Of a DNA stretch of 64,000 bases, positions 6,521 to 64,000 are shown piece after piece. A program made the translations under genes and the position numbers. Location: the NCBI GenBank assembly GCA_021413945.1, contig JAIOPK010000006.1, forward strand, positions 390,327-454,326, written 5' to 3'. The stretch is from Candidatus Uhrbacteria bacterium. Its GTDB lineage: Bacteria; Patescibacteriota; Patescibacteriia; 2-12-FULL-60-25. The notes below the pieces were generated by a model. It did not search any database and was not told where the DNA came from. It saw nothing but the letters and a program-made list of their open reading frames with translations. The stretch's first letter is position 1, and every line of letters begins with the position of its first letter.

Positions 6521-7936
6521 GTGAGATATTGGCCTATGAAACGGACGATGATATTAGACATGGTCGACAAGGTCGGAGAGGAAGTCTGGCTGAAAGGCTG
6601 GGTCCATAATCGACGCGACATGGGGAAACTGGCGTTTATCGATATGCGCGACCGCAGCGGTTTGGCGCAGGTCGTTTTTGTTCCGGCAGAACTCGACGAT
6701 ACGTCGAAAGACTTGGTCGGGAATCTCCGTCCCGAGTTTTGTATCGCCGTACGCGGGATTGTGAACAAGCGCGGAGCTAAACAGATTAACGAAACGTTGC
6801 CGACGGGAACGGTTGAGGTGCTCGCCAAAGAACTCGTTATTTTGAACGAGTCCAAGACGCCGCCGTTTGGATTGGAGGATACGGCGGGTATTAACGAGGA
6901 ATTGCGTTTGAAGTATCGCTATTTGGATTTGCGATCGCCACGCATGCTCAAGAACCTGATTCTTAGGGACAACGTCAATCGCTTTTTCCGCGAGTATCTC
7001 CATGCACAAGGATTTATCGAGGTAGAAACGCCGATCTTGACCAAGGGTACGCCGGAGGGAGCGCGTGAATTTCTCGTGCCGTCACGTTTGCACGAGGGAC
7101 AGTTTTACGTGTTGCCGCAATCTCCGCAGCAGTTCAAGCAATTGTTGATGGTCGGTGGCGTGGAAAAATATTTCCAAATCGCGCGATGCTTCCGCGATGA
7201 AGACCAACGTGGCGACCGTCAGCCGGAATTTACTCAACTCGATATGGAAATGTCATTCGTCGAGCGCGAGGACGTCATGCAATTGGTCGAGTCGATGATG
7301 ATTGAGCTTGTGAAAGCCGTCGCACCGGAAAAGCGCATTCAACAAGTTCCGTTTCCTCGTTTGAGCTATGCCGAGTCGATGGAGAAGTATGGAAATGACA
7401 AACCGGACTTGCGCGAGGATAAGAATGATCCGAACTTGCTCGCGTTTTGCTGGGTGATCGACTTTCCATTTTTTGAAAAGACCGATGAAGGAGGGTGGAC
7501 ATTTAGCCACAATCCTTTCTCTGCGCCAAAACCGGAGCATATGCCGTGGCTCATGGAGAAAACGAATGTCGGCGAGATTTTGACAACGCAGTATGACATC
7601 GTCCTCAACGGTTTTGAAGCCGGTGGCGGCAGTATTCGAAATCACCAGCCGGAAGCTCTACAAAAAGTATTTGAGGTTCTTGGATTTGGCAATGAGGAAA
7701 TTCAATCGCAATTTGGTCATATGATCGAGGCGTTTGGATTTGGCGCTCCTCCGCACGGAGGTATTGCGCCGGGAATCGACCGTATCGTGATGATTTTGGC
7801 GAATGAACCAAATATCCGTGAAGTGATTCCGATTCCAAAGACGGGCGATGCTCGCGATATGATGATGGGAGCGCCGAGTCCGGTTAGTGAAAAGGCTTTA
7901 GAGGATGCACATATCAGTATACGAAAACCCAAGTAA
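6521..7936 (+). CDS. aspS: aspartyl-tRNA synthetase, short form lacking the bacterial insertion domain
   Basis: OB fold (FIDMRDRSGLAQVVF), motif 2 (FRDEDQRGDRQPEFTQLD) and motif 3 (GGIAPGIDRIVM). The sequence goes directly from KPDLRE to FCWVIDFPFFE, where bacterial AspRS normally carries a ~130-aa insertion. Confidence 0.9.
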   Translation: MRYWPMKRTMILDMVDKVGEEVWLKGWVHNRRDMGKLAFIDMRDRSGLAQVVFVPAELDDTSKDLVGNLRPEFCIAVRGIVNKRGAKQINETLPTGTVEVLAKELVILNESKTPPFGLEDTAGINEELRLKYRYLDLRSPRMLKNLILRDNVNRFFREYLHAQGFIEVETPILTKGTPEGAREFLVPSRLHEGQFYVLPQSPQQFKQLLMVGGVEKYFQIARCFRDEDQRGDRQPEFTQLDMEMSFVEREDVMQLVESMMIELVKAVAPEKRIQQVPFPRLSYAESMEKYGNDKPDLREDKNDPNLLAFCWVIDFPFFEKTDEGGWTFSHNPFSAPKPEHMPWLMEKTNVGEILTTQYDIVLNGFEAGGGSIRNHQPEALQKVFEVLGFGNEEIQSQFGHMIEAFGFGAPPHGGIAPGIDRIVMILANEPNIREVIPIPKTGDARDMMMGAPSPVSEKALEDAHISIRKPK

Positions 7937-61265: not shown

Positions 61266-61344
61266 GAGAGAAGCGCTCCTGTCCGGTCATGTTAAGCCAC
61301 GCGATGCATTGTTCACTTGAGCTCCCCAGACTCATCCCAGCTAC

Positions 61345-63033
61345 CGAGCCCCGCCGATTCGAAAGAATCGGCGGGGCTGTTCTATTGACAGATTACAAAA
61401 AATACCGTTGGATGTGGGTATTCCGCCATGCATCGCGTCCCTGTGTCCAGCCACCTGCTGTATCGTGACCAGTCCTGCCCTCCCGAGCCCTCCGACCACA
61501 AATCGGAGGGCTGCTCTATTCTTCCTGAGCTTGCCGAAGGATTGACAAAGTTGTTATTTTAATATCTACTAGGTTTTACATTTAGCGCTACGCGGCGCAG
61601 CGTGCCGTCCAGCATCCTATCCTATCGTGGAGCGGAGCGTCCTTACCTCTCGAGCCCCGGCATCGCAAGATGACCGGGGCTGTTCTATTGACAAACATGG
61701 TCATTTCATCCATTGTCGTTGTCGAGTTGCCCCGTCATGCAACGTACTCAGTAGTTACGAGTCGAGTCGCGCAGCCCACTGTCCTCCCGAGCCCTCCGAC
61801 CTAAAATTCGGAGGGCTGTTCTATTCCGGGATTGACACAACCGATGAATGGTCCTAAGTTGATGTCTTCCGCGGACCACGCATACGCGTTGCCACGACCT
61901 GTAATGTTCGGTCCAGTTCCGTCATCTCAGCTATCGAGCCCTCCGACCACAAGTCGGAGGGCTGTTCTATTTGTTGACAATGACGTAATATAATGTTTAA
62001 ATATTTACTCGTGCACCCTATTGCTTTGTTTTGTTCAGCACTCCCAAGTGTTGCGCCCCGTCCTCACGAGCCCCGTCGATTCGCAAGAGTCGGCGGGGCT
62101 GTTCTATTGACAAATAATGAAATTCGATTACTGTCGCTAGGTTGGCGTCAACCTCGGCATTGTGGCCTGGTCCCTTCTGTCGCATCCTCGTCCTGCCTGC
62201 CGTGTCCAGATCCCATCTACCGAGCCCCGGCATCGCAAGATGACCGGGGCTGTTCTATTGACAAAAATATATACAATGTATAAGGATAAGATCCTCGACC
62301 TTGCGTATTGTACTGCAATTCTTTCCATCGTGATTCTTCCTGCCGAGCCCTCCGACCCAAAAAGTCGGAGGGCTGTTCTATTGACGAAGGAGGGGATTTG
62401 TACAATATTCAAATACGCCCTTGGGTCACGCAACGCCAAGTGTCGCACCGTCTTGCGATCCTTCCTACCGAGCCCCGCCGATTCTCACGACTCGGCGGGG
62501 CTGTTTCATTGACAAATATCACTTTTTCTATATCCTTGCCCAAGTACAGCCGTGCTACGCCCCGTACAGTTATGTAGTCCCCCTCTACCGAGCCCCGTTC
62601 ATCTGAAAGGATGACCGGGGCTGTTCTATTGACAAAACCAAAATTCTTGGCTAAGCAGATGATGCTGTAACGCGGTGCTTCGCGTCCTGGACAGCGGCGC
62701 TCTTATGCTCCCCGCCGAGCCCCGTCATTCCGAAAGGAGTGGCGGGGCTGTTCTATTGACATTTGAATATTTCATCTGTAGCTTGGCAACCTAGTGATGC
62801 CACGCGTCGTTCGGCTCTGCCAAGCTCCCCGATGCGCACCTCCGCCACCAGAACTCACCCGTCCTATCGAGCCCTCCGACCAAAAATTGGAGGGCTGTTC
62901 TATTGACAAAATATTATTTCTTGCTAGTCTCAACTGACTCCTGCAATGCTAAGTGGTGCAAACTTGAGCTGTGTAGGCTAACCTCGCGAGCCCCGTCATT
63001 CCGAAAAGGAGTGGCGGGGCTGTTCTATTGACA
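61345..63033 (+). repeat. array of 13 tandem hairpin-terminator + TTGACA modules separating 74-108 nt unique segments (putative small-RNA gene array)
   Basis: The module is CGAGCCC-[stem-loop]-GGGCTGTTCTATTGACA. CGAGCCC starts at 61345, 61484, 61651, 61788, 61935, 62067, 62221, 62344, 62469, 62589, 62716, 62868 and 62987. TTGACA (TTGACG in copy 8) starts at 61385, 61542, 61688, 61832, 61974, 62107, 62258, 62381, 62509, 62629, 62756, 62903 and 63028. There are two stem classes, GAGCCCCG... (8 copies) and GAGCCCTCCGA... (5 copies), with compensatory or wobble changes. No credible ORF is present. Confidence 0.8.
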
Positions 63034-63117
63034 GTAAGCTTTTTTTTGCGCAAGTTAGCAATGGCTGTTGAGTAGTCAACCGCTTCGTACAGCGCACACG
63101 CGCAGCCCACTCTTTCG

Positions 63118-63150
63118 GGCCCCGTGATCGATTTGATCGATTGCGGGGCC
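63118..63150 (+). terminator. distinct intrinsic terminator closing the last array unit
   Basis: GGCCCCG-TG-ATCGAT-TTG-ATCGAT-TG-CGGGGCC followed by GTTTAATTATT. Confidence 0.65.
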
Positions 63151-63165
63151 GTTTAATTATTAGGC

Positions 63166-63194
63166 TTGACAAAGCCAATAATTTATGGTTATTT
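63166..63194 (+). promoter_or_regulatory. candidate promoter of the helicase gene
   Basis: TTGACA (63166-63171), a 17-nt spacer, then TTATTT (63189-63194). The downstream RBS-like AAAGGAAA precedes the ATG at 63242. Confidence 0.4.
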
Positions 63195-63241: not shown

Positions 63242-64000
63242 ATGGAAAACCAGACTCTGGAAGCCAGCTTTCCGCATGACGAGATCCGCGGCGTCCAGGG
63301 GAAGGCCCTGGAGTTCATCGCCAAGCATCCGGAAGGATGCATCCTAGAGATTCCAACGGGAACGGGGAAGACGGCCATCGCTTGGGCTGCGCTCCGTGCC
63401 GCCGAGGCCGAGGGCCAGAAGGGCCTCGTCTACGTCACGCCGACCAAGATGCAGGCCGAGCAGATCATGCAGGGGTACGCCAAGCGCGGCAACAAGGTCG
63501 CGCTCACCGTGCTCGGACGAGCCGAGTACGAGTGCCTCTACTACACCGATCTCGGTCAGGAAGTGAACGCGGAGCAGTCACCCTGCTACGTGCTCGACTG
63601 CGATCATCGCGTCGATCAGGAGACAGGGGAGACCGAGGATCCGGAAGAGGATCCCTGCCCCTACTACCTCGCCAAGTTCAAGGCCAAGCAGTCGCTCATG
63701 AGCGGCGGGATCGTGGTCACAACCACGGCCTTCTACATCATGAACCGCATGCTGGTCTCCGGCTGGCGCGACGCGGAAGTCTCTCTGGTAGTGATCGACG
63801 AGGCGCATCGCATGGCGCCGATCGCTCGGAGCGTGTTCGACCAGACCGTGACGGACTGGCATCTGAAGCGCATCGCCGAGATCGTCCGCGACATCAGCGA
63901 GAAGGACGCGGACGCGCTCCTCGAGTTCTACAAGGCGTTCATGCGCATGGTCCTCCCCAAGGCATCGCAGGAGGCCAAGCTCCTCAAGGACGAGGAGCTG
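63242..64000 (+). CDS. XPD/Rad3/DinG-family Fe-S helicase, N-terminal 253 codons (3' end outside window)
   Basis: I translated this myself, as it is not in the ORF track and is open to the window end. MENQTLEASFPHDEIRGVQGKALEF...EIPTGTGKTA (Walker A)...four Cys spaced as in the XPD Fe-S domain (YECLYY, SPCYVLDC, DPCPYY)...VVIDEAHR (DEAH box). Codon usage is strongly GC3-rich. Confidence 0.75.
   Translation, partial: MENQTLEASFPHDEIRGVQGKALEFIAKHPEGCILEIPTGTGKTAIAWAALRAAEAEGQKGLVYVTPTKMQAEQIMQGYAKRGNKVALTVLGRAEYECLYYTDLGQEVNAEQSPCYVLDCDHRVDQETGETEDPEEDPCPYYLAKFKAKQSLMSGGIVVTTTAFYIMNRMLVSGWRDAEVSLVVIDEAHRMAPIARSVFDQTVTDWHLKRIAEIVRDISEKDADALLEFYKAFMRMVLPKASQEAKLLKDEEL

What the first reader, a model, noticed from the sequence alone, without database searches (positions are those of the whole stretch)
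63242..64000. GC3-rich XPD/DinG-like Fe-S helicase abutting the RNA array, truncated by the window edge
The ORF starting at 63242 carries a Walker A motif (PTGTGKT), a four-Cys cluster spaced as in XPD/DinG Fe-S domains (C..C-x4-C..CPYY) and a DEAH box (VIDEAH). Its codon usage (GAG, AAG, CTC, GAC, ATC, GCC) is strikingly GC3-rich compared with pheST and the rest of the window. The compositional change begins around 63.1 kb, at the distinct terminator/promoter that closes the array. DinG-family helicases recur in defence and mobile-element contexts, for example the accessory helicase of type IV CRISPR-Cas. Its placement next to an array of individually transcribed short RNAs is therefore suggestive. 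The remainder of the locus lies outside the window, so the system cannot be defined here.
Basis: partly seen in the sequence, partly recalled or inferred. Interest (0 to 1): 0.6.

Follow-up and report, generated by a model that had tools for sequence, protein, structure and literature searches.

The report
Helicase partner of VIPR RNA-guided system
The gene cut off by the window edge encodes an XPD/DinG-type iron-sulfur DNA helicase that is not a housekeeping repair enzyme; it is the constant genomic partner of a Cas7-like 'Vipr' protein and about 26 short guide-RNA genes, forming a chromosomal VIPR system (a CRISPR-like system first described in 2026 preprints) in an ultrasmall CPR bacterium.

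Summary
Window 63242-64000 is the first 253 codons of a 606-aa XPD/DinG-family helicase with Walker A, DEAH and four conserved cysteines, and its GC3 is 0.86 against a genome mean of 0.62.

Extending the contig shows that the RNA array does not end at the helicase. The layout is 13 units, the helicase, 6 units, a 273-aa gene, then 7 units. That second gene folds as a Cas7-type RAMP, and its best AlphaFold-DB match is X1U2U4, the reference Vipr protein.

The RNA bodies carry a strict 5-nt periodicity (non-G, G/C, C/T, N, N) for about 12 repeats ahead of a constant hairpin. This is the vrRNA architecture of VIPR systems (bioRxiv 10.64898/2026.04.26.720920) with a non-canonical repeat.

Helicase and Vipr co-occur in exactly the same 5 of 41 related genomes. 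Across Patescibacteria, 70 of 76 helicase loci have a Vipr gene within 5 kb. The genome has no other XPD/DinG paralogue and no Cas1.

The helicase is therefore most likely the accessory ('vap'-type) helicase of a VIPR system. Its mechanism is inferred by analogy with CasDinG. No natural targets and no RNA data were found.

This scan had already called the adjoining array on this same window VIPR (note e1-3941365); I tested that reading independently.

The parts
61281..63033 (+). First block of 13 vrRNA-like genes. Each has a TTGACA promoter, a 50-90 nt body of about 12 five-nt (non-G)(G/C)(C/T)NN repeats, a CYACC motif and a GC-rich terminator hairpin.
63029..63150 (+). Possible 14th unit with a variant hairpin tail (hairpin 63118-63150), directly upstream of the helicase promoter. 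Its periodicity was not analysed.
63166..63171 (+). TTGACA -35-like hexamer of the presumed helicase promoter
   Evidence: promoter function is inferred from sequence only
63242..64000 (+). First 253 of 606 codons of the XPD/DinG-family Fe-S helicase. The gene runs on to G000:C2:455388, outside the window.
63353..63373 (+). Walker A motif PTGTGKT (residues 38-44)
63533..63658 (+). Four-cysteine cluster C98, C115, C120, C139 (predicted 4Fe-4S domain)
63791..63808 (+). DEAH box VIDEAH (residues 184-189)

Best explanation
The ORF is the N-terminal part of a 606-aa XPD/DinG-family helicase (superfamily 2) predicted to bind a 4Fe-4S cluster. It is the dedicated accessory ('vap'-type) helicase of a chromosomal VIPR system in a Candidatus Uhrbacteria-like bacterium.

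The locus holds about 26 short guide-RNA (vrRNA) genes, each with its own promoter and terminator, flanking two protein genes: this helicase and a Cas7-like Vipr protein.

By analogy with characterised VIPR systems, Vipr protomers would polymerise on the 5-nt repeats of each vrRNA, and the exposed NN dinucleotides would read double-stranded DNA through a gapped code. This step is inferred here.

The helicase's role is also inferred. Most likely (about 50%) it is recruited to the R-loop-like target complex, loads on displaced single-stranded DNA and translocates 5' to 3'. That would extend silencing or block replication of the invader, as CasDinG does in type IV-A CRISPR-Cas.

Shown here: family membership, the conserved catalytic and cysteine motifs, the genomic linkage and the vrRNA code. 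Not shown: transcription, targets, or any biochemical activity.
For: **Helicase identity**
- Pfam finds DEAD plus Helicase_C_2, with a near-threshold DEAD_2 match.
- The AF2 model (pLDDT 90.5) matches full-length archaeal XPD (TM 0.71), E. coli DinG (0.69), TFIIH XPD and CasDinG (0.62-0.64).
- Walker A, DEAH, motif VI and the four cysteines are conserved in 42 homologues.

**Partner protein**
- The AF2 model of the 273-aa neighbour has pLDDT 88.6.
- All 50 top PDB hits are Cas7-family RAMPs, and Csm3 gives Z 11.6.
- Its top hit among AlphaFold-DB clusters is X1U2U4 (E 2e-12, TM 0.83), the reference Vipr named in 10.64898/2026.10.21.760802.

**Guide RNAs**
- 72 unit bodies aligned at the hairpin show a 5-nt period. 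G/C is at 92%, C/T at 88% and non-G at 92% of the fixed positions, while the NN positions have near-uniform composition.
- In one orthologous vrRNA pair from two strains, NN is identical in 14 of 16 repeats. The fixed triplets differ in 10 of 17 repeats but stay within class.

**Linkage**
- Helicase and Vipr occur in the same 5 of 41 relatives and in none of the other 36.
- All six distant loci sampled have both genes.
- 70 of 76 loci across Patescibacteria have Vipr within 5 kb; four of the six exceptions have little or no sequence upstream of the helicase, three of them cut by the contig end.
- Periodic tracts number 193 on the helicase strand against 16 on the opposite strand.

**Not housekeeping, not CRISPR**
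- NCBIfam DinG and YoaA score 56 and 55 bits against cut-offs of 598-789.
- The genome has no second XPD/DinG paralogue and no Cas1.

**Literature**
- VIPR loci consist of vipr, vap and vrRNAs, and some types carry predicted helicases.
Against: - No transcript data exist for these RNAs. No public RNA run holds the region.
- No natural target was found in the organism's own genome, in IMG/VR, in the metagenome collection, or in 401 genomes of the class. DNA targeting and the 1-nt skip rule are therefore untested for this type.
- The repeat is not the canonical GGY/NN.
- The preprint text available to me does not say which helicase family its helicase-bearing types carry. Identity with a published 'vap' family is therefore unverified.
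- The helicase's role is an argument by analogy only.
- Two loci with full flanks (L102, L106) lack a detectable Vipr at E<=1e-5.
Confidence: 0.8

Rival explanations
1. It is a housekeeping DNA-repair helicase (a DinG, YoaA or XPD orthologue) that merely lies beside an unrelated small-RNA array.
For: It has the fold and motifs of XPD/DinG. It is the only XPD/DinG-family helicase in this reduced genome.
Against: It was found in only 5 of 41 relatives, and was not found in 4 of 5 congeners, including near-complete genomes. It co-occurs perfectly with Vipr. Its NCBIfam scores are more than tenfold below the equivalog cut-offs.
Confidence: 0.03
2. The locus is a degenerate or minimal type IV CRISPR-Cas system, with CasDinG plus Csf2, whose array has been reshaped.
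For: The pairing of a Cas7-like protein with a DinG-like helicase mirrors type IV-A. The RAMP model matches Csf2 at Z 9.0. The PADLOC typeIV_DinG profile matches over the full length.
Against: - That PADLOC profile matches in all 14 control genomes, so it is not specific.
- The RAMP is closer to Vipr X1U2U4 and to Csm3 than to Csf2.
- The helicase is structurally nearer to XPD and DinG than to CasDinG.
- The RNAs carry a 5-nt gapped code, not contiguous spacers.
- The genome has no Cas1, and the locus has no third protein gene that could be Cas5, Cas8 or Cas6.
Confidence: 0.04
3. The helicase belongs to the VIPR system but acts on the ribonucleoprotein rather than on target DNA. It might load or strip Vipr from vrRNA, or remove RNA-DNA hybrids to recycle complexes.
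For: XPD/DinG relatives can unwind RNA-DNA hybrids (own knowledge of DinG and CasDinG, not tested here). The linkage data fit any role within the system.
Against: There is no direct evidence either way. Characterised VIPR RNPs assemble without a helicase (type II systems). The preprints group the predicted helicase and nuclease vap genes together as predicted enzymes among DNA-interacting accessories.
Confidence: 0.12

Closest known systems
VIPR systems (Viral Interference Programmable Repeat; bioRxiv 10.64898/2026.04.26.720920 and 10.64898/2026.04.26.720927), characterised for the type II systems of phage SUSP1 and a Pseudomonas fulva prophage
   Same: A single small RAMP protein (Vipr), one adjacent accessory gene, and flanking ~100-nt RNAs built of 5-nt repeats with two hypervariable positions and a constant 3' tail. 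There is no CRISPR array and no Cas1.
   Different: - The accessory gene is a 606-aa Fe-S XPD/DinG-type helicase rather than a small DNA-binding Vap1.
- The repeat consensus is (non-G)(G/C)(C/T)NN rather than GGYNN.
- The tail is a plain terminator hairpin, not a pseudoknot.
- There are about 26 vrRNA genes against 3-4.
- The locus is chromosomal in a CPR bacterium rather than in a phage or prophage.
- Helicase-bearing VIPR types are only mentioned as predictions in the preprints.
CasDinG (Csf4) of type IV-A CRISPR-Cas
   Same: An XPD/DinG-family helicase paired with a Cas7-type RNA-guided filament and no nuclease in the locus. The fold match has TM 0.62-0.64.
   Different: This helicase keeps all four Fe-S cysteines. 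CasDinG has only a vestigial Fe-S domain (own knowledge, not checked here). Structurally this helicase is nearer to XPD and DinG. The guide RNAs and the RAMP are of VIPR type, not CRISPR type.
Archaeal XPD (Thermoplasma acidophilum Ta0057) and bacterial DinG
   Same: The best structural matches (TM 0.71 and 0.69), with the same motif set and a four-cysteine cluster.
   Different: Sequence similarity is low (15-18% identity). NCBIfam DinG, YoaA and rad3 scores are far below their cut-offs. The distribution is patchy and tied to Vipr, unlike a core repair gene.

Membership tests
VIPR system | Vipr protein: a minimal RAMP with an RRM core and a glycine-rich loop | tested here: met
   AF2 model with pLDDT 88.6. 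The top AlphaFold-DB cluster hit is X1U2U4, the reference Vipr (E 2e-12, TM 0.83). PDB hits are all Cas7-family proteins. The GPFGRF loop is invariant.
VIPR system | vrRNA: tandem 5-nt repeats with a conserved trinucleotide and a hypervariable NN | tested here: met
   A 5-nt period runs over about 12 repeats in 72 units, and the NN positions have near-uniform composition. The consensus is non-canonical (HSY, not GGY). Non-canonical motifs are reported in 10.64898/2026.10.21.760802.
VIPR system | Invariant structured 3' tail after the repeat tract | tested here: met
   A CYACC motif followed by a GAGCC...GGCT hairpin is present in all 26 units. Stems vary in a compensatory way.
VIPR system | Adjacent accessory (vap) gene, and no CRISPR array or adaptation genes | tested here: met
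   The locus has only two protein genes. No Cas1 is present in the genome.
VIPR system | vrRNAs are expressed and bound by Vipr | not testable with these tools
   No public RNA run holds the region.
VIPR system | Gapped (1-nt skip) recognition of foreign DNA targets | tested here: inconclusive
   There are no self-hits above the shuffled control, as the preprint also reports for its systems. No exact or near-exact targets were found in the collections I could scan. Those scans tolerate few mismatches.
XPD/DinG family (SF2 Fe-S helicases) | Walker A, DEAH and motif VI, plus a Helicase_C_2 C-terminal domain | tested here: met
XPD/DinG family (SF2 Fe-S helicases) | Four-cysteine Fe-S domain inserted in helicase domain 1 | tested here: met
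   C98, C115, C120 and C139 are conserved in 42 sequences. Actual cluster binding was not tested.
XPD/DinG family (SF2 Fe-S helicases) | Four-domain fold (HD1, Fe-S, Arch, HD2) | tested here: met
   Full-length Foldseek matches to XPD, DinG and TFIIH XPD at TM 0.63-0.71.
Housekeeping DinG / YoaA (NCBIfam equivalogs) | Score above the curated equivalog cut-off | tested here: not met
   56, 55 and 46 bits against cut-offs of 789, 680 and 598.
Type IV CRISPR-Cas | A CRISPR array with contiguous spacers, plus Csf1, Csf3 and Cas6 partners | tested here: not met
   The RNAs are separate promoter-terminator units with a 5-nt code. The locus has no further protein genes. The PADLOC typeIV_DinG match is unspecific.

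The most novel reading that the evidence does not exclude
The pairing of Vipr with an Fe-S XPD-like helicase, found across Patescibacteria, may be an ancestral or independently evolved counterpart of the Cas7-CasDinG pairing of type IV CRISPR-Cas. On this reading, an RNA-guided filament whose only effector is a 5'-3' helicase could be the evolutionary bridge between VIPR and CRISPR class 1. Its chromosomal repertoire of 26 guides would act as a Cas1-less heritable immune memory that turns over by gain and loss of whole promoter-guide-terminator units.
Probability: 0.12. Interest if true: 0.8.

Novelty: new member of a known kind. Interest (0 to 1): 0.5.

Why it matters
VIPR systems were described only in 2026, and only types with small DNA-binding accessories have been studied. 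The helicase-bearing types are named only as predictions.

This locus and its 70 or more relatives define a concrete, conserved helicase partner with intact Fe-S and ATPase motifs, a non-canonical repeat code, and unusually large guide repertoires in host chromosomes of ultrasmall CPR bacteria. That gives a clear test case for how a helicase is coupled to gapped RNA-guided DNA recognition. It also allows a direct comparison with CasDinG in type IV CRISPR-Cas.

For genome annotation, it means 'Rad3-related helicase' genes in Patescibacteria should not be read as repair genes.

Tried and rejected
**Known RNA families.** The RNA units are not tRNAs and match no Rfam family.

**Phage origin.** tblastn of the helicase and of the RAMP against 50,697 phage records found nothing. 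Only weak PHROG profile hits exist.

**PADLOC typeIV_DinG.** The hit looked like support for type IV, but the profile matches in all 14 control genomes, so I discarded it as evidence.

**Contiguous antisense targets.** BLAST of the RNA bodies against the organism's own genome gave only chance 13-15-mers.

**Gapped NNx targets.**
- Hits in the own genome equal the shuffled control for skips of 0-3.
- Exact-pattern scans of viral contigs and of metagenome contigs found nothing.
- A scan allowing up to 3 mismatches in 401 genomes of the class found nothing.

**Codon bias of highly expressed genes as the cause of high GC3.** The other top-GC3 genes are accessory-type (FHA, GGDEF/PAS, cNMP-binding, orphans), not translation genes. 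This explanation is therefore unsupported, though not excluded.

**Recent horizontal transfer as the sole cause of high GC3.** This is unlikely. GC3 follows the order vipr, then helicase, then the neighbour mean in 10 of 11 loci (in L039 the helicase equals the neighbour mean), across genomes of 42-56% GC.

**Transcript evidence.** The one RNA run from the source sample is tiny and holds nothing from this region.

Full report
**Observation.** The window is G000:C2:390327-454326 of a 1.05-Mb, 100%-complete genome. Its closest named relatives are Candidatus Uhrbacteria and other Patescibacteria.

An ORF open to the window end begins at 63185, and the likely start is ATG 63242. The translation carries PTGTGKT (residues 38-44), VIDEAH (184-189) and cysteines at 98, 115, 120 and 139.

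GC rises from about 0.52 to 0.63 at the gene. The gene's GC3 of 0.85 ranks 5th of 702 ORFs, against a mean of 0.616 and sd of 0.075.

**The full gene and its family.** On the contig the gene is 606 codons long.

- Pfam gives DEAD, ResIII and Helicase_C_2, with DEAD_2 just under threshold.
- NCBIfam models for DinG, YoaA and rad3 match only partly, at 45-56 bits against cut-offs of 247-789.
- The AF2 model (pLDDT 90.5) aligns over its full length to archaeal XPD (TM 0.71), E. coli DinG (0.69), TFIIH XPD (0.71) and CasDinG (0.62-0.64).
- In 42 homologues the Walker A, DEAH and motif VI residues and the four cysteines are invariant or nearly so.

It is therefore an intact XPD/DinG-family helicase with a predicted Fe-S cluster. 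The PADLOC typeIV_DinG match carries no weight, because that profile matches in all 14 control genomes. The same search shows that the genome has no second XPD/DinG paralogue.

**The locus beyond the window.** The repeated terminator-plus-TTGACA motif occurs 19 times on the plus strand between C2:451700 and 458166. Reading the sequence gives 26 units: 13 before the helicase, 6 between it and a second GC-rich gene, and 7 after that gene. Terminator-like hairpins are enriched, with 24 found against 6.6 +/- 3.0 in shuffles.

The second gene (273 aa, GC3 0.96) has no Pfam, NCBIfam or PADLOC hit. Its AF2 model (pLDDT 88.6) matches only Cas7-family RAMPs in the PDB (Csm3 at Z 11.6, Cmr4, gRAMP, Csf2). 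Its best AlphaFold-DB cluster hit is X1U2U4 (E 2e-12, TM 0.83). That entry is the reference Vipr protein used in 10.64898/2026.10.21.760802. The family is large, with 7,620 cluster representatives.

**The RNAs.** I read the preprints. VIPR loci consist of a Vipr RAMP, an accessory vap gene, and ~100-nt vrRNAs made of 9-16 five-nt repeats (GGY/NN) followed by an invariant tail.

I then tested this reading directly. I aligned 72 unit bodies from four genomes at the hairpin. They show a strict 5-nt period out to about -65.

| Position in repeat | Allowed bases | Share of positions |
|---|---|---|
| Fixed 1 | non-G | 92% |
| Fixed 2 | G or C | 92% |
| Fixed 3 | C or T | 88% |
| N, N | any | near-uniform composition |

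The consensus is non-canonical, and non-canonical motifs have been reported.

Close strains with helicases 96% identical to this one carry 5 or 6 upstream units instead of 13, and share only one unit body with this genome. In that orthologous pair the NN dinucleotides are identical in 14 of 16 repeats. The fixed triplets differ in 10 of 17 repeats but stay within their class (Fisher p = 0.027). This is the pattern expected if NN carries the specificity.

**Linkage of the helicase to the system.**

- Among 41 related genomes the helicase is found in 5, and the Vipr profile is found in exactly the same 5.
- In one other genus the order pheT, DUF948, array, helicase, array, vipr, array is preserved at 47% helicase identity.
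- Six more distant homologues (39-49% identity) all have Vipr within 3 kb.
- A scan of one genome per species recovered 76 loci across many Patescibacteria lineages. Of these, 70 have a Vipr ORF within 5 kb, usually upstream on the same strand with a median gap of 1.1 kb. Four of the six exceptions have little or no sequence upstream of the helicase, three of them cut by the contig end.
- Periodic tracts are 12-fold enriched on the helicase strand, 193 against 16.
- The genome has no Cas1.

The helicase is thus a dedicated partner of Vipr and not a repair gene.

**Composition.** GC3 follows the order vipr, then helicase, then the neighbour mean in 10 of the 11 loci examined (in L039 the helicase equals the neighbour mean), in genomes of 42-56% GC. 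It is therefore a maintained trait, not only a mark of recent transfer. The other top-GC3 genes of this genome are accessory-type, so the cause stays open.

**Mechanism.** The steps shown are family, motifs, linkage and the RNA code. The mechanism itself is inferred.

Vipr filaments on each vrRNA would recognise double-stranded DNA by the gapped code described for type II VIPR. The helicase would load on displaced DNA and translocate, as CasDinG does in type IV-A.

I found no targets. Self-hits equal the shuffled control. Scans of viral, metagenome and class-level genome collections were empty. These scans allow few or no mismatches, so this is weak negative evidence. No RNA run covers the locus.

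**Comparison and novelty.** This is a member of the VIPR kind. The preprints mention predicted helicase accessories without detail.

What is added here:
- the identity of the helicase (Fe-S XPD/DinG type) and its conserved motifs;
- its near-obligate pairing with Vipr across Patescibacteria;
- the non-canonical repeat;
- the promoter-and-terminator organisation of each guide gene;
- the large, fast-turning-over chromosomal repertoire.

Neither protein is specifically closer to its type IV CRISPR counterpart. A direct evolutionary bridge to type IV therefore remains a low-probability reading.

Noticed in passing
L009:8122-17327 (G000:C2:458448-467653, outside the window): Directly after the last vrRNA unit lies a block of genes: a ResIII/Helicase_C helicase, an HrpA-like DEAH/HA2 helicase, a DnaA_C-HTH protein, RNase III and two sigma-70-like genes. 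The ResIII helicase has no orthologue in 24 relatives but has a 48% paralogue about 8 kb further on. The helicase genes at least look strain-specific; only the ResIII helicase was searched in relatives. This block does not travel with VIPR in the other genomes.
   Followed up: partly
L021 (G002:C45) about 6800-6965, next to pheT-DUF948: A congeneric genome (88% complete) has two hairpin-plus-promoter units at the same chromosomal site, but no helicase or Vipr was detected. These may be 'solo' vrRNAs like those reported for VIPR-null phages.
   Followed up: partly
G000:C10:602; C12:199512(+); C12:179315(-); C20:44445: Isolated copies of the terminator-plus-TTGACA motif occur elsewhere in the genome. 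I did not check whether periodic guide bodies precede them.
   Followed up: no
L017/L018 (G020:C111 and C8): This relative carries two Vipr-like genes and at least 26 units. The array breaks the assembly at contig ends.
   Followed up: partly
L009:2610-3139, laid against run X2: A wood-decay metagenome holds contigs nearly identical to four of this genome's vrRNA units (0-1 differences). Its helicase fragments differ by about 8%. This could mean exchange of units between strains, or a mixture of strains.
   Followed up: no
L068, L079, L092: Three helicase loci come from bins labelled as DPANN archaea (Woesearchaeota, Aenigmatarchaeota), and several from bins labelled Gammaproteobacteria. These are probably mislabelled bins, but transfer of the system beyond Patescibacteria was not excluded.
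   Followed up: no
L106 and L102: Two loci with full flanks lack a detectable Vipr at E<=1e-5. One of them (L106) nonetheless has 19 periodic tracts, which suggests a divergent Vipr there.
   Followed up: no
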